This document shows, piece by piece, positions 27,001 through 33,000 of a stretch of DNA of 50,212 nucleotides. The position numbers were made by a program. Origin of the DNA: a virus (taxonomy: Duplodnaviria > Heunggongvirae > Uroviricota > Caudoviricetes); IMG/VR virus record IMGVR_UViG_2874945390_000009; one strand, given 5' to 3'. Numbering within the stretch: the stretch's first letter is position 1; every line of letters starts with the position of its first letter.

Positions 27001-30000
27001 ACGCGGTAAAAACCCGGTGTGCATCGTTTTTGATTATTCCCGCACACTCGCGCAGAAGGAGTTCCCCGTCGGGCTACGGTCATGGTTAATGCGGGAATAC
27101 AGCGACGATACAGCGCATGATGTGTCAGGCCTGAATACCTTTATCCGTTAAAAGGGATATCAGTTAAGTTATCCCGTGTAGGGTATAAGCCATTATCAAG
27201 CCCACCAGTAGATGGGCTTTGTAATGGCTACTTCGCTTTTGCTTCCGCTCGCTTACGCCGGCGCTCTTCTTTCCTCTCGGCTTTTGCCATGTCCATGAAT
27301 GCCTGCATGATCGAGTTCCGCATCATGTAGCTAACAAAGTGATGATTGACACAGCCGTTGAGGCGCAGCTGCTCGCCAAACTCATCCACCGAGGCCAATG
27401 CTTCCATCATGCCCTTCTCGCCTTTCATGAACTCTGAGAAGTCGCGCCCCGCTCTGGAGGCGCATTCAATGACACGATCACTCATCCCGGAAGCCCGGGG
27501 ATCGTTATCTGCAGCTGGTTAGCCAGGAAGTTAATCTCAGCGACCAGCACTGGCTTCGTATAGCGCCATGCCGCCAGCCCTTGTCCACAGAAGCTCGCCA
27601 TATCTTTTTTCTGATCAAACTCATGACACTTCATATTGAGCTGCGCACTTAAGCTGTTGCGATGCTGAAGTTCTCCGGTGAAGTAGTCATCCAGGACTTT
27701 ATAGGCTGCATATTTAAATCCGGGGTTTAGCCATGCTGCATAATCATAAGCAACAAACTTCCCGCCATATGTTCCACCGTGTACACCGCGCTCAGTAAAA
27801 ACCACAGATTCGTGGTTTTTCTCCAGCTCGGCTAAGAACTCTTTGGTCTGCTTGTTTCGCAGGTAGTGGTACGGAGATTCAGATTCACTTTTACCACTGG
27901 CTTTCCACATATCAGTGAGGCAGATCATTCCTGATTCATCAACACGGATCGGTGTATTAAAAAGCGTGATTGCTTTCATGGCGTCTTTACCTTTTAGAAA
28001 GATGAGCCTGTTCGCACAGAAAAGCCGTCCCCGAGATGGTCGCCACCATATACGGCAATTCTCAGGCTCAGCTTTCTGAAAGACTCGGGGTTTATATGCG
28101 CTGCGATGCGCGGTTTACTGCGGACATATAAAAGCCCGCAAGTGCGAGGCTCATTAAATGGACTTTGTGATTTGCAAAAAAATTTATTTCAGGCACTGAG
28201 TCCTGATGTACTCCTGAAGCATTCTCAATGCTGTCTGGTCGCTGATGATTCCGTCCCGGATACCGAGAACGTTTCGTCCAGCAACTGGAGAGAGTTCGAC
28301 GGTGGCATCATTGCCCATGCCGGAGGCGCTGGAGGTTTCGGCTGAGGATGGCACAGGGCATTTTCCTTTGACGAGCACCCGACCACCATTATCAAGCTTG
28401 CGCCGAAGAGCATCATTTTCAGCTTTCGCATCAGCTAACTCCTTCGTGTATTTAGCATCGAGTGCATTAACATCACGCAGTCTCTGCTGCATGTCAGTAA
28501 TGGTTGCGTTCGCCAGCTTCAGTTCTCTTGCGTTTTTGTCGCGCTGCTCTTTGTAGGTAATGGCGTTATCACGGTAATGATTAACAGCCCATGACAGGCA
28601 GACGATGATGCAGATAACCAGAGCGGAGATAATCGCGGTGACTCTGCTCATTGATCTATCCCCCAACAGGCTAATGCGCTTTCCTGGTCACGACGAATAA
28701 CCTGTCCATAGCAGTTATTTGAACGTATGCGGCAATCGCGCCCAACATCTTTTATCCACCAGCGAATCGCCTCGCATGCGCCCTTACGATCACCGGCATT
28801 CAGCCGCTTATAAAACGTCGACGGGAAACACTTACCGGGGCCAATGTTATAGGGGCAAAATGACGCTATACCCGCTTTTTGTGGTTCGGTCAGTGGTACT
28901 TTAATATTGCGCTCCACCCATGCCAGCGCCTTATCACGTTCAATGGCGTTAACCTGGTCGCATTTTTCCTTCGACAGTTTCATACCGGGAAAAACGGGTT
29001 TACCATCCACCATCGTGGCACCCCGACAGATGGTCCAGATGCCGGAACCATCGCGGTATGCCGTAGTGTGGTTACCTTCTTTTTCATCCAGAAACTGGTC
29101 GAGAATATCAGGCGCAGGCGCACCGATAGCAATCAGTGCCAGAACGGCAGCCGACAGGCCATATCTGATTTTTACGTTCATGGATATTTATCAGGATTTA
29201 TCGGCTTCAAATCCCCGGATATGTTAAATCTTACCTCGCCAGTGATGGGCACTGGCGGGAGGAGGATGTCAATCTGATAAACACAGAGGTGACTATGGAT
29301 TACACAAATCTACCAAAACAAACTTTTGCTGATTTAATCGCACTCAGGCAAGCAGTCGTAGCTCTAATCAACTTGTTGCCGGAGAAGGAAAAGGAATTAG
29401 TTAAAGCGCTTCTTAACAGAACTGCCGCCGATTTTTCATCATATCCACTGACAGATGACCTTGCGGACCTTCCTGAATTAATTGCAGCGTCCGCCATTAA
29501 GCTTACTGAAGAGATTTACCCTCCTCAAAAATCTTCACAAAATTCCTGCGAGTAACTTCAATGCAATAATCGTAAAACGCCGCAAACTGCTCATCGCGGC
29601 GTTTTTTTTCATCTTCAGAAGGAATCAGCACCGACAATTTTTTCTCCAGTTTTTCAATGGGCGATTCAATATCATCTTTTTCTGACCGCAATGCCGTCGG
29701 TGGCGTCTTCAGAGAACCAGTAATTCTTCCCGGTAGCTTTCCTTTGTAGGTTATCCACACATTCTGCGCCTCTAAAATTATGGGGCGCTTTTCCGGCGAC
29801 TGCTCATCCCCTTCACATAACCCGGCAGCAACATCCAGGAATACCTGTCTGATTCTCATTCTGGCCGCTGCCTCATAAAACTCCAGCGCGGCACCTTCAA
29901 CACGGTCCAGCGAGATGTCCAGGTCAAAAATTTCACCGTCAAAGCGTTTTTTGTCCCGTAACGCTAAAGTTACCGCAACTTTATTCTCAAAATTGCGGAT

Positions 30001-33000
30001 CCCTTTCACAATCAGTTCATAGTTTTGTGTCATTGAATTACTCTCCCCGCGCAGCCTTACGCTTGTCTTCTCTTATTTTGAAATACAGGTTAGTCAGATA
30101 TGTCAGCAGCCCAAACAGCAGACTCCCCAGCACGCCTATTGCCGCCCACTGAGACGGGGAAACCCTGTCCAGCAACTGCAGGAACCAGTAGCCCGTTCCC
30201 ACCGCTGACGTGGTGTATGACACACCTGTTGTGATTTTTTCCATCTGGTCCATACCCCGTCTCCCGTTATCCGGAAGCTGACAACAATAAAAAAGCCACC
30301 AGTTAACTACTGATGGCTCTGATAACTCATGCAAGCGTCTCAGACGATCCACTGACACTACCGGTGAGTTTAACGATACCTTCCATTTGACTGGCTCACT
30401 TTTTATGATGATGCCGGTGCATTTATCTCCAGCACCAGACTTTCTATCTCAACGCCATACGTTGCATTTTTGGTAATATCCGTCAGCGTCAGTGCATTTA
30501 GTCCCACTGCCAGACTGTCTTTTATGGCCTGGAATGCCGGGCCAGTACGATGACGTAGTATCACTCCGGCTCAGTTGCACCACTGACCACCACATCACCT
30601 TCTGCTGCAATCGCCTGCATCAGGGTATAAGGGGTTATGGCCACCGGACTACCAAACGGCTGCCAGCCCTCTTTCAGTTTATGTGTCAGCTTTTCCGCAA
30701 GATCTGACGGCGGCGCCGCCCTGACAACATCATAGTGTTTAAATGCCATGGTTCTTTCCACCATCTGAAAAATAATTCTTTAAAATACCTGACATGTAAT
30801 ACAGAAAAAACACAAAACCATACCTTAAATAAAAACCTGATTATCAAGCAGATATGCATGGATAAACTACAAGACGAGATATAAACCACCCTGCATTTAA
30901 ATAAACAATAAACAACATCAGAAAAATAATTCTGCTCTATGGTTTACATTCAAAAATATCATTTATACTTTTCAGAACATCACCAGCAAGGCATAAACAA
31001 GGAAACTAAATGAAGTGGATTGTGATTGATACAGTTATCCAGCCATCATGCGGAATATCTTTTTCAGTCATATGGAGTAAAATAAAATTAATAATCTGGT
31101 ATCAATCGGATGCTTTCTTACCTCCTGAAAGTATATTTACACTGACTCACACAGGCATCATGCTCAATAACAAAGTGCTACCTGTAACCATTTACAACGT
31201 AGTACCATTCAATAAAACATTCTGGAATTTAATCAAAAACAGCCAGGAATGCCCTACAAATACAGATAACGTATTGAATGAATGCTTTAATAACCGTTGC
31301 ACTCTGCAAATATGTCCTTATGGACTAAAACAACAAAGTCCATAAGGAGTTTACTCACATCTGACAAAATCAATATAAACAGCCCCTCCGGAGAGGGGCT
31401 GGAGAGTGGCGCTATGTGCCATTGCATGGTGCCGGGTGCCTCCCGGTGAATTCAGTACCAGCACCTGAATCCGCGATTATCCCATATACCTACTCGCTGA
31501 TTGCCCCTCCGCACAGGGGGATTCACCATGCCAGTTTCTTTTAACAAACTCCCCGCAAACCAGACAACAGTCAACCGCCTGAATTGTGAAGTATTTAAAA
31601 ATTTCTCCCGCTAACTGATACCCGGCTAACAGTCTGGCGTTTTCTTTTTCAGCAACGGGAAAGCAACAACCCTGTTATCGTGTCGTCTGCTCTTCCTGAT
31701 AAGCTAATGGCGGTTTGTGATGGTGGCCCTTGCTGGATTTGAACCAGCGACCTGGCGATTATGAGTCGCTCGCTCTCACCACTGAGCTAAAGGGCCGGGA
31801 GCAGAATAATAACGGTCCGTAATTAATTCCGCAATAAAAAACCCGCTCGGCGACGGGTTGTAGAAACTCTTCTAACGTCAGGCATAAAAAGCCCATCGTT
31901 ATGACGAATTTACCACAGATTCCGGAAAAATCAACCTTGTTACCTAGTTACCTTTTTTAACTGCCGCTCAGCCCATGCTTCTTCAATATCAAACCGGGTC
32001 ACCAGCGCATCATAGAATTTCTTAACTGTTTTTTCCCATGACGCGCGTGTTATCTGGTTTGTCACCTCGCATATAGCATTAAATGCCTCCGTTGATGGTA
32101 GTCTTTCATAGCCACGACCACCACAACGCTGGCAGTCTCTGATAACAGGCATACCACGTTTTACCGACTCTTCACGGTGAATGGCGACACCACGCCCACG
32201 GCAATCCTTACAGGCGGTGGAAACCTCACCCTTTCCGCCACACTCCGGACAGGCAACTTTTACCACCTCCCTGACTTTTTTCCATTCTTCCCAGTAAGAC
32301 GGATACACACCTTTCGTACACTTTGCCCATACCGGCGGCTTACCATCCGGATACTGGACCTTGTTTGTAAAAACTACGCTTTCAATAAATTTTTCCCCAT
32401 AGCAACAAGGGCACTGCTTTTTACTCGCTGCGCTGCGGGCATAATCCTCAAAAGCGTACGAAGCCATAATGCGCATCACTACCGGTTTTATTTCTGCCGG
32501 AAGTTTTCTCAACGCCGCCACACGATCGCACCGACTGAGTGCATAATCTGCCAGTAATTCTGTTGCCCGCGCCCTGTCATTCATACTGATGCCCATTTTC
32601 CCCAGGAACGCAGAAAACCCCATCTCAGCCCGATTCTGTGTCATGCCCTGCGCGGCCATCACATCAGTGATACTCAGCGCATCTTTTGACGTTGAGGCCG
32701 ATGCATCGGTCAGGCCAGGGGATTTTGGGGAGTAGTATTTCGGTAAATCTTCCAGTTTCATTTTTTGACCTGCTCTTCATGCATTATGGGGTAAATCTTC
32801 ACCCCCATACGTCCACCAGATACTGGCTGACCACGAACGATATTGATTTCATCAAACTGCTCATCGTCCATTAACACTCCCGCATGTGTCAGTGCATCCA
32901 GTGGTGCTTTCAGGATATTGTCCAGGTCACGACGGCGCTTATCCGGTGGCTCTGCAATAATCTTTATCGCCAGTCTTCCGGACAGGCTTAATTTCAGTCG

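What the first reader, a model, noticed from the sequence alone, without database searches (positions are those of the whole stretch)
29182..30037. Two unknown genes inserted between pinholin and SAR endolysin
In phage-21-type lysis cassettes the endolysin gene normally abuts the holin gene. Here a 176-aa acidic soluble protein is translationally coupled to the holin stop (4-nt gap), followed by about 320 bp holding a convergent 86-aa plus-strand ORF, and only then the endolysin, which lacks an obvious ribosome binding site. I recognise neither protein. The cassette is placed to be co-expressed with lysis, so it could regulate lysis timing or act as moron cargo such as a defence or exclusion function.
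Basis: partly seen in the sequence, partly recalled or inferred. Interest (0 to 1): 0.6.

Follow-up and report, generated by a model that had tools for sequence, protein, structure and literature searches.

The report
YdfR gene plus convergent moron cassette
The two "unknown" genes between the phage holin and endolysin are a member of the common but barely studied YdfR family, fused to a short coiled-coil tail, and a small gene on the opposite strand; the tail and the small gene travel together as a rare accessory cassette whose function is still unknown.

Summary
On the minus strand an S21-type pinholin (30038-30253) is followed after 4 nt by a 176-aa ORF (29503-30033). An 86-aa plus-strand ORF (29295-55) converges on it, and then comes an SD-less SAR endolysin.

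Residues 1-112 of the 176-aa ORF are Pfam DUF1327/YdfR. E. coli K-12 Qin has the same essQ-ydfR-rrrQ order, and 4045 of 5426 complete E. coli genomes match the region. K-12 YdfR residues 1-72 bind the catalytic half of RNase E (PMC13232886).

What appears undescribed is the pairing of residues 113-176, a coiled-coil tail, with the 86-aa gene:
- They form a low-GC block of about 470 bp, found in 294 of 5426 genomes.
- It occurs in three diverged sequence types and four architectures, including stand-alone 67- and 73-aa tail genes.
- The 3' ends always overlap by 53-59 nt, and a conserved hairpin follows the small gene's stop.

The small gene is truly coding (omega 0.2-0.3 at dS above 1). It encodes an orphan acidic three-helix protein.

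Best reading: a moron-like unit antisense to the late operon, with a late-made partner. Function is unknown, and I found no support for a role in lysis timing.

The parts
30038..30253 (-). S21-type class II (pin)holin, 71 aa, dual start MDQM
   Evidence: Pfam PF04971, E 5.7e-32. PGAP nt at the same place in the 99.9% identical genome.
29698..30033 (-). YdfR/DUF1327 N-terminal module (residues 1-112 of the 176-aa ORF). The ATG lies 4 nt after the holin stop.
   Evidence: Pfam PF07041, E 4.4e-40, 136 bits. 77% identical to K-12 YdfR over residues 1-74. AF2 gives a beta-beta-beta-alpha core at residues 5-73, pLDDT 70-88. Omega is 0.24-0.42.
29503..29697 (-). Coiled-coil tail ('CC', residues 113-176 plus stop), carrying the motif EKKRRDEQFAAFYDYC...RRNFVKIFEEGKSLQ. 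The window allele has a 21-nt in-frame deletion relative to the common 183-aa form.
   Evidence: The same segment occurs as stand-alone genes of 67 aa (after the holin) and 73 aa (after Rz). BLASTP between types A and C gives 43% over 35 aa, E 9e-6. All length variants are in frame.
29573..29608 (+). Hairpin (stem 29573-29582 / 29595-29604, 12-nt loop) plus U8. It starts 18 nt after the small gene's stop and lies inside the CC coding sequence. Candidate terminator or recombination junction.
   Evidence: Fold energy -17 kcal/mol (+ strand) and -23 (- strand), z -2.8 and -3.4. The core AACGCC..GGCGTT is invariant in types A, B, C and in Stx1_14040. There is one compensatory GC>AU pair. 97.9% of cells are paired against 27-69% when the partners are slid.
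29295..29555 (+). Small gene: an 86-aa acidic (pI 4.6) cytoplasmic three-helix protein, PHROG 2572, RefSeq WP_001306174-like. Its last 53 nt overlap the CC 3' end.
   Evidence: phrog_2572, E 1.3e-53. Remote homologues of 41-57% identity are the only true relatives in 1.84e9 representatives. Omega is 0.21-0.30 between types, with no stops; this beats the antisense shadow frame. Within type A there are 13 synonymous, 15 non-synonymous and 1 stop variants; codon positions 5/8/16, P 0.011. AF2 predicts 3 helices, pLDDT 73.
29235..29289 (+). Cassette-specific 5' leader of the small gene: perfect 8-bp hairpin CGCCAGTG-ATGGG-CACTGGCG (29238-29258) and SD AGAGG (29285-29289).
   Evidence: Fold of 29225-29295: -29.4 kcal/mol, z -5.4. 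The hairpin region is also present upstream of a different cargo in Stx1_14040.
29198..29226 (+). Promoter-like element TTTATC-N17-TATGTT (weak -35). It lies in the flank shared with cassette-less phages.
   Evidence: Conserved with equal spacing in types A, B and C, although type C has no endolysin beside it. It is also present in BP-4795, which lacks the cassette, and was not reported by the consensus scan. Status: inconclusive.
28648..29181 (-). SAR-type endolysin, with no SD in its leader
   Evidence: Pfam PF00959, E 7.3e-24. The N-terminus YGLSAAVLALIAIGA precedes the catalytic region.
28184..28666 (-). Rz spanin, with embedded Rz1 (28225-28431)
   Evidence: Pfam PF03245, E 1.6e-31. ORFs.

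Best explanation
The interval is a mosaic of two accessory modules inside an ordinary S21-holin / SAR-endolysin / Rz-Rz1 cassette of an E. coli/Shigella lambdoid prophage.

Module 1 is the YdfR (DUF1327) N-domain. It is a late protein translated just after the holin. By homology with K-12 YdfR it most likely binds the catalytic half of RNase E and RNA. That makes it an RNA-metabolism accessory rather than a lysis effector (inferred).

Module 2 is a low-GC cassette of about 470 bp (about 29229-29697) made of two convergent genes:
- a coiled-coil peptide (CC) on the late strand, here fused in frame to YdfR as residues 113-176;
- an 86-aa gene on the opposite strand for a small acidic three-helix cytoplasmic protein.
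Their 3' ends overlap by 53 nt, and a hairpin+U8 follows the small gene's stop inside the CC coding sequence.

Proposed mode of action (inferred, not shown). The small gene behaves like a moron. It has its own SD, a candidate promoter and a terminator, so it can be transcribed from the prophage against the late operon. Q-antiterminated late transcription would read through the hairpin. That would produce CC, coupled to holin translation, while opposing the small gene through convergent transcription and antisense RNA. The two products would then belong to different states, lysogen and late lytic, and CC is the likely partner or antagonist of the small protein.

The cassette is dispensable and is not a core lysis function.
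For: Shown:
- YdfR family membership, and the same gene order in K-12 Qin and CFT073.
- 77% identity to K-12 YdfR over the segment that binds the RNase E N-terminal half in two-hybrid and pull-down assays and co-purifies RNA.
- The cassette is an indel relative to BP-4795. It is present in 294 of 5426 genomes and in 8 of 427 holin-bearing phage records, all isolated or inducible phages.
- CC and the small gene co-occur in four architectures with the same convergent 53-59-nt overlap:
  - YdfR_N+CC of 169-211 aa (type A);
  - YdfR_N + K-12-type linker + CC of 174 or 243 aa (type B);
  - a stand-alone 73-aa CC after Rz (type C);
  - a stand-alone 67-aa CC right after the holin, listed in 401 blocks of the collection.
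- The small gene is under purifying selection, and its frame is the best of the six.
- All CC length variants are in frame.
- The hairpin is conserved, with one compensatory pair.
- GC is 40.6% (CC) and 41.4% (small gene), against 52.8% (holin) and 50.9% (endolysin).
Against: - No transcription or translation data were available.
- The promoter-like element has a weak -35 (3 of 6), was missed by the consensus scan, and also occurs in phages without the cassette. It may instead serve the endolysin leader.
- The U-tract after the hairpin is strong only in type A.
- CC shows weak amino-acid constraint between types (omega 0.8-0.95). Its two best-conserved stretches coincide with the hairpin and with the overlap, so part of its conservation could be at the nucleic-acid level.
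- In the window's own 176-aa lineage, 8 of 10 loci have ATG>ACG at the small gene's start. The gene is therefore easily lost.
- The RNase E link rests on one 2026 paper on the K-12 homologue, in which overproduction barely changed the transcriptome.
Confidence: 0.45

Rival explanations
1. Single-gene moron. Only the 86-aa gene, with its terminator, is functional. The 'CC tail' is an incidental open reading frame that runs from the upstream late gene into the antisense of the cassette until a stop is met.
For: - CC omega between types is 0.8-0.95.
- The conserved CC stretches coincide with the hairpin and with the overlapped 3' end of the small gene.
- PGAP annotates the long ORF as a truncated YdfR pseudogene.
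- Some loci carry frameshifted tails (P0118).
Against: - At least seven length variants, in two types, are all in frame and keep the same C-terminal end.
- CC occurs as a stand-alone gene with its own ATG, coupled to the holin stop (67 aa, listed in 401 blocks of the collection) or to the Rz stop (73 aa).
- L091 against L099 gives omega 0.42 in the non-overlapping part, with no indels at about 70% identity.
Confidence: 0.2
2. Lysis-timing regulator. The 176-aa protein, or its CC tail, binds the pinholin or the SAR endolysin in the cytoplasm and tunes the time of lysis, as the cytoplasmic antiholin cofactor RIII does for the T4 holin. The small protein would modulate this.
For: - Position between S and R, with the start 4 nt after the holin stop.
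- CC is always translationally coupled to a lysis gene, either the holin or Rz.
- RIII as a small soluble holin regulator is my own recollection, not tested here.
Against: - No transmembrane segment and no hit to any lysis family in Pfam or PHROGs.
- 326 of the 427 phage records with this holin lack the YdfR N-domain, and 419 lack the small gene.
- Type C places the pair after Rz, next to the terminase genes.
- Overproducing K-12 YdfR gives no growth or lysis phenotype.
Confidence: 0.1
3. The 86-aa ORF is not a gene. What is conserved is an RNA element or the minus-strand 'shadow' ORF (29300-29497, 65 aa), which would make the whole region one co-directional late operon.
For: - A minus-strand ORF stays open across the small gene in all three types.
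- Its third codon positions coincide with those of the plus frame, so within-type polymorphism cannot separate the two: 14/14 against 13/15.
- The ATG is lost in 8 of 10 loci of the window's lineage.
Against: - In five between-type comparisons the plus frame has the lowest omega (0.21-0.30 against 0.33-0.55). It also has higher identity and BLOSUM scores, and no stops against 1-2.
- The plus ORF keeps its start position, SD, length and N-terminal motif in all types.
- The start of the shadow ORF differs between types.
- AF2 gives a three-helix fold at pLDDT 73.
Confidence: 0.05

Closest known systems
E. coli K-12 Qin prophage essQ-ydfR-rrrQ-rzpQ (YdfR, P76160, DUF1327)
   Same: - Same gene order: class II holin, then ydfR 4 nt later, then lysozyme.
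- 77% identity over residues 1-74, the segment reported to bind the RNase E N-terminal half.
   Different: - K-12 YdfR is 103 aa and abuts rrrQ.
- It matches the type B long form at 85% over 99 aa and then stops. It therefore looks like a deletion derivative that has lost the CC end and the convergent gene.
- The window carries the type A tail plus the 86-aa gene.
Lambda-type morons such as bor (my own knowledge: a prophage-expressed gene next to the lysis genes, antisense to the late operon, with its own promoter and terminator)
   Same: - Antisense orientation within the late operon, beside the lysis genes.
- Own SD and hairpin+U8.
- Lower GC than its neighbours.
- Present or absent between related phages. 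The type C copy sits between Rz and the small terminase gene, which is bor's position.
   Different: - The product is a small acidic cytoplasmic helical protein, not a lipoprotein.
- It always comes with a sense-strand coiled-coil ORF that it overlaps by 53-59 nt.
- Its terminator lies inside that ORF.
- The promoter is not established.
Convergent-overlap antisense control in lambda (oop RNA against the cII 3' end; my own knowledge)
   Same: Two convergent transcription units with overlapping 3' ends in a lambdoid phage. This could give mutually exclusive expression through antisense RNA or transcriptional interference.
   Different: Here both partners are protein-coding, and no RNA data exist. 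The resemblance is one of geometry only.
Phage-encoded modulators of RNase E (T7 gp0.7, T4 Srd, phiKZ Dip; my own knowledge)
   Same: A phage or prophage protein that binds RNase E, as reported for K-12 YdfR.
   Different: - YdfR binds the catalytic N-terminal half.
- Its effect on RNase E activity is unknown.

Membership tests
YdfR / DUF1327 (PF07041) | Match to the family HMM above the gathering score | tested here: met
   136.2 bits against a cutoff of 25, residues 1-112. RefSeq names identical proteins 'YdfR family protein'.
YdfR / DUF1327 (PF07041) | Encoded directly after a class II holin and before the lysozyme in lambdoid prophages | tested here: met
   K-12, CFT073, BP-4795 and the window all have this order.
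YdfR / DUF1327 (PF07041) | Binds the RNase E N-terminal half; co-purifies with RNA (reported only for K-12 YdfR) | not testable with these tools
   [not shown]
Moron (extra transcription unit in a phage operon) | Lies between genes or segments that are adjacent in related phages | tested here: met
   BP-4795 and the other short-YdfR phages lack the block of about 470 bp. 294 of 5426 genomes carry it.
Moron (extra transcription unit in a phage operon) | Own terminator | tested here: met
   A 10-bp stem plus U8, starting 18 nt after the stop, z -2.8; conserved across types. The U-tract is weak in types B and C.
Moron (extra transcription unit in a phage operon) | Own promoter | tested here: inconclusive
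   TTTATC-N17-TATGTT is conserved in the three types. But the -35 is weak, the scan did not report it, and it is also present without the cassette.
Moron (extra transcription unit in a phage operon) | Base composition differs from that of its neighbours | tested here: met
   GC 40.6-41.4% against 50.9-52.8%.
Moron (extra transcription unit in a phage operon) | Expressed from the repressed prophage | not testable with these tools
   No expression data were found. The paper search for the RefSeq accession gave nothing.
Type II toxin-antitoxin pair | Co-directional two-gene operon with recognisable toxin and antitoxin folds | tested here: not met
   The genes are convergent. No Pfam, NCBIfam or PADLOC hit for either partner.
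Holin regulators (antiholin, releasin-type) | Membrane-spanning or membrane-tethered segment, or membership of a lysis family | tested here: not met
   No hydrophobic segment is visible in either sequence; GRAVY is -0.49 and -0.11. The PHROG families matched are all 'unknown function'. No transmembrane predictor was run.
Known anti-phage defence systems (PADLOC-DB 2.0) | Match to any defence-protein model | tested here: not met
   No families matched for either ORF or for the variant tails. The only hit, PbeC at E 0.018, is noise.
Anti-CRISPR AcrIIC4 | Significant sequence or fold similarity | tested here: not met
   Foldseek E 2.2, TM 0.33. hmmsearch E 0.2. hhalign probability 9%.

The most novel reading that the evidence does not exclude
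The coiled-coil / small-protein pair is a state switch with built-in self-immunity. In this reading, the small acidic protein is made in the lysogen and acts on superinfecting phages or on a host target; possibilities include an RNase E-linked step or S21/SAR-type lysis. When the resident prophage is induced, Q-modified late transcription silences the small gene by convergent transcription and antisense RNA, and at the same time produces the coiled-coil antagonist. This geometry would be kept in all four architectures.
Probability: 0.12. Interest if true: 0.7.

Novelty: new variant of a known kind. Interest (0 to 1): 0.35.

Why it matters
- **Annotation.** PGAP calls the long ORF a truncated YdfR pseudogene, and in the closest genome it leaves the small gene uncalled. 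K-12 ydfR itself looks like a deletion remnant of a longer form.
- **A testable unit.** The slot between ydfR and the endolysin is variable. One of its occupants is a two-gene convergent unit with no known function, carried by about 5% of complete E. coli genomes, including CFT073 and inducible ECOR phages.
- **Link to RNase E.** A 2026 report found that YdfR binds RNase E. If the pair turns out to be a lysogen/lytic switch or an exclusion function, it would add a new kind of cargo to lambdoid late operons.
- **Otherwise** it is one more accessory gene of unknown function.

Tried and rejected
- **Weak Pfam hits for the 86-aa ORF.** ABATE (E 0.074) and DUF1823 (E 0.11) are both below threshold. 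The label 'DUF1823 containing protein' in the PhiR phage records therefore has no support.
- **PADLOC and NCBIfam.** No hits.
- **Fold searches.**
  - 86-aa model against PDB and BFVD: nothing with E below 1.
  - The afdb50 library was not available.
- **AcrIIC4.** It came up in both the Foldseek and the hmmsearch results, but the hhalign probability is 9%, so I rejected it.
- **phmmer hit P0139.** A 975-aa repeat protein with 8 matched stretches. I judged this match spurious from its repetitive sequence. I also set P0142 aside as an aberrant sequence.
- **Collection scans.** The genome-contig scan found E. coli only. The metagenome scan found only types A and B. P0091, a possible fourth tail type, lies at a contig end.
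- **Stx1_14040.** It has a 263-aa sense ORF and a 233-aa convergent ORF overlapping by 252 nt. I could not decide which strand codes, and neither ORF has a family match.
- **Literature.** Searches on lysis-cassette morons and on defence hotspots found nothing about this locus.
- **Within-type polymorphism.** It cannot separate the plus frame from the antisense frame that shares its third codon positions. The between-type comparison did separate them.

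
Full report
**1. What is there**

The lysis genes lie on the minus strand.
- A DUF1737 gene lies at 30561-30764.
- The holin is an S21-type class II holin (Pfam PF04971, E 5.7e-32). Its 71-aa form occupies 30038-30253.
- A 176-aa ORF runs from 30033 to 29503. Its ATG lies 4 nt after the holin stop, behind a GGAGAG Shine-Dalgarno (SD).
- The SAR-type endolysin is at 28648-29181 and Rz/Rz1 at 28184-28666.

An 86-aa ORF runs the other way, 29295-29555, behind the SD AGAGG. 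Its last 53 nt overlap the end of the 176-aa ORF. The endolysin has no SD.

**2. The 176-aa protein is not unknown**

- Residues 1-112 match Pfam DUF1327 at 136 bits against a cutoff of 25. RefSeq names identical proteins 'YdfR family protein'.
- E. coli K-12 Qin has essQ-ydfR-rrrQ-rzpQ in the same order.
- 4045 of 5426 complete E. coli genomes match the 856-nt interval, mostly through this N-domain.
- Among deposited phages, 427 records carry this holin and 101 of them carry the YdfR N-domain.
- The only functional data come from a 2026 paper (PMC13232886):
  - K-12 YdfR, through residues 1-72, gives two-hybrid and co-purification signals with the catalytic N-terminal half of RNase E.
  - It brings down DNase-resistant nucleic acid.
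  - Overproduction causes no growth defect and few transcript changes.
- The window protein is 77% identical to K-12 YdfR over residues 1-74.

**3. The tail and the small gene form a separate cassette**

- Compared with phage BP-4795 (114-aa YdfR), the window has an extra block of about 470 bp, about 29229-29697. The flanks are shared.
- The block holds residues 113-176 of the long ORF (the 'CC' tail), the 86-aa gene and its leader.
- Its GC content is 40.6-41.4%, against 50.9-52.8% for the endolysin and holin.
- At least 80% of the block is present in 294 of 5426 complete genomes, including CFT073. There it sits in the Qin-like prophage between essQ and rrrQ.
- It is present in 8 phage records: 2H10, PhiR63_1, PhiR12_x and PhiR5_1.

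**4. The pair is conserved as a unit**

An exhaustive phmmer search of 1.84 billion representatives found only two truly diverged relatives of the 86-aa protein, at 57% and 41% identity. Fetching their loci, and searching with the tail alone, gave four architectures:

| Architecture | Late-strand ORF | Small gene | Position |
|---|---|---|---|
| A | YdfR_N + CC, 169-211 aa | 86 aa | between holin and endolysin |
| B | YdfR_N + K-12-type linker + CC, 174 or 243 aa | 89 or 93 aa | between holin and endolysin |
| C | stand-alone 73-aa CC, start overlapping the Rz (DUF2514) stop | 93 aa | between Rz and the small terminase gene |
| D | stand-alone 67-aa CC, 4 nt after the holin, no YdfR domain | 86 aa | between holin and endolysin; listed in 401 blocks of the collection |

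- In every case the two genes converge and overlap by 53-59 nt.
- The CC tails are recognisably related. Types A and C share 43% identity over 35 aa (E 9e-6), with the motif E-x-K-R-R-D-E..A-A-x-Y...R-N-F/L..K..KS.Q.
- K-12 YdfR matches type B at 85% over 99 residues and then stops. It therefore appears to be a deletion remnant.

**5. Are both ORFs coding?**

*Small gene: yes.*
- Between types, dS is 1.1-2.0 and omega is 0.21-0.35.
- The start position, SD, length and N-terminal motif are all kept.
- A minus-strand shadow ORF (29300-29497) shares third codon positions with it. Within-type polymorphism therefore cannot separate the two.
- In five between-type comparisons the plus frame always has lower omega, higher identity, better BLOSUM scores and no stops.
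- AF2 predicts three helices at pLDDT 73. The protein is acidic, pI 4.6.

*CC tail: probably.*
- Amino-acid constraint is weak. Omega is 0.8-0.95 between types and 0.42 between two type C alleles.
- Its best-conserved stretches coincide with the hairpin and with the overlap.
- Against that, all seven or more length variants are in frame.
- It also exists as two kinds of stand-alone gene, each coupled to an upstream lysis gene.

**6. Signals**

- Hairpin. Eighteen nt after the small gene's stop there is a hairpin, AAAACGCCGC-12 nt-GCGGCGUUUU, followed by U8 (29573-29608).
  - Fold energy is -17 kcal/mol, z -2.8. The complementary strand also folds, at -23 kcal/mol.
  - The core is invariant in types A, B and C, and in Stx1_14040, where different cargo follows.
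  - There is one compensatory GC>AU pair. 97.9% of cells are paired, against 27-69% when the partners are slid.
  - With only six distinct sequences this is suggestive, not proof. The U-tract is good only in type A.
- Promoter-like element. Upstream of the small gene, TTTATC-N17-TATGTT (29198-29226) is conserved in all three types, even where no endolysin follows. However, its -35 is weak, the scan missed it, and it also occurs in BP-4795, which lacks the cassette. The promoter therefore remains unproven.
- Leader. It contains a perfect 8-bp hairpin (29238-29258; the fold of 29225-29295 gives z -5.4).

**7. The slot is variable**

- The same upstream region and the same hairpin flank other contents:
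  - nothing, in short-YdfR phages;
  - a sense-oriented domain of about 150 aa fused to YdfR, in the 296-aa form with no convergent gene;
  - an unresolved 263-aa / 233-aa overlapping pair in Stx1_14040.
- An IS3 element has landed in the cassette in one strain.
- In the window's own 176-aa lineage, 8 of 10 loci carry ATG>ACG in the small gene. The window and one other locus keep ATG.
- The cassette is therefore dispensable.

**8. Interpretation**

- Best-supported reading: an ordinary lysis cassette with two accessory modules.
  - The YdfR domain is a late protein that likely binds RNase E and RNA.
  - The CC / small-gene cassette is a moron-like unit antisense to the late operon.
- The products of the cassette are expected in different states: the small protein in the lysogen and CC late. 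The geometry invites mutual exclusion by convergent transcription. These steps are inferred. No expression data were available.
- I found nothing to support lysis timing: no membrane segment, no lysis family, viable phages with and without the cassette, and one architecture that lies outside the S-R interval.
- No known defence, toxin-antitoxin or anti-CRISPR family matches.

**9. Novelty and score**

- The S-ydfR-R arrangement is already annotated and common.
- In the searches I ran, the convergent CC / small-gene pair as a mobile unit does not appear in the literature. It is unusual for a moron in having an obligatory overlapping sense-strand partner.
- Its function is unknown and its distribution is narrow: E. 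coli/Shigella lambdoid phages.
- Interest is moderate to low.

Noticed in passing
window 31371-31560 (-) and 31721-31796 (-): A strong Rfam match to the sRNA STnc100 (132 bits, E 6.5e-30) and a tRNA-Met (CAT) lie upstream of the lysis genes. In CFSAN029787, whose lysis-gene interval is nearly identical, the region upstream of the holin carries four tRNAs (Gly, Thr, Arg, Ile), so the tRNA/sRNA content there varies.
   Followed up: no
window 30292-30320 (-): A terminator-like hairpin (12 pairs, then UUUUAUUGUUG) lies just upstream of the holin start, within the late transcription unit. It may be one of the terminators that Q-modified polymerase must read through.
   Followed up: no
window 29300-29497 (-): A 65-aa 'shadow' ORF lies antisense to the small gene. 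Its ATG is 5 nt after the stop of the 176-aa ORF, and it is open in all three cassette types. It scores worse than the plus frame in every between-type comparison, but it cannot be excluded as a second product.
   Followed up: partly
L003 (K-12 MG1655) 3555-3866; compare L101 4224-4748: The K-12 reference gene ydfR (103 aa) matches the 174-aa type B form at 85% over 99 residues and then ends against rrrQ. It looks like a deletion remnant that has lost the coiled-coil end and the convergent small gene.
   Followed up: partly
L090 (Stx1a phage Stx1_14040) 1209-2450: At the same slot an annotated 263-aa YdfR-long ORF and a 233-aa convergent ORF overlap by 252 nt. Neither the 233-aa ORF nor the tail of the 263-aa ORF has any family match, and it is unclear which strand codes.
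   Followed up: partly
L087 (E. coli 06_3288) 2847-4060: An IS3-family element is inserted inside the cassette, between the small gene region and ydfR.
   Followed up: no
window 31010-31345 (+) and 27482-27979 (-): Two further unannotated-looking ORFs flank the lysis cassette: a 111-aa plus-strand ORF between the tRNA and the DUF1737 gene, and a 165-aa ORF downstream of Rz. Neither was searched against any library.
   Followed up: no
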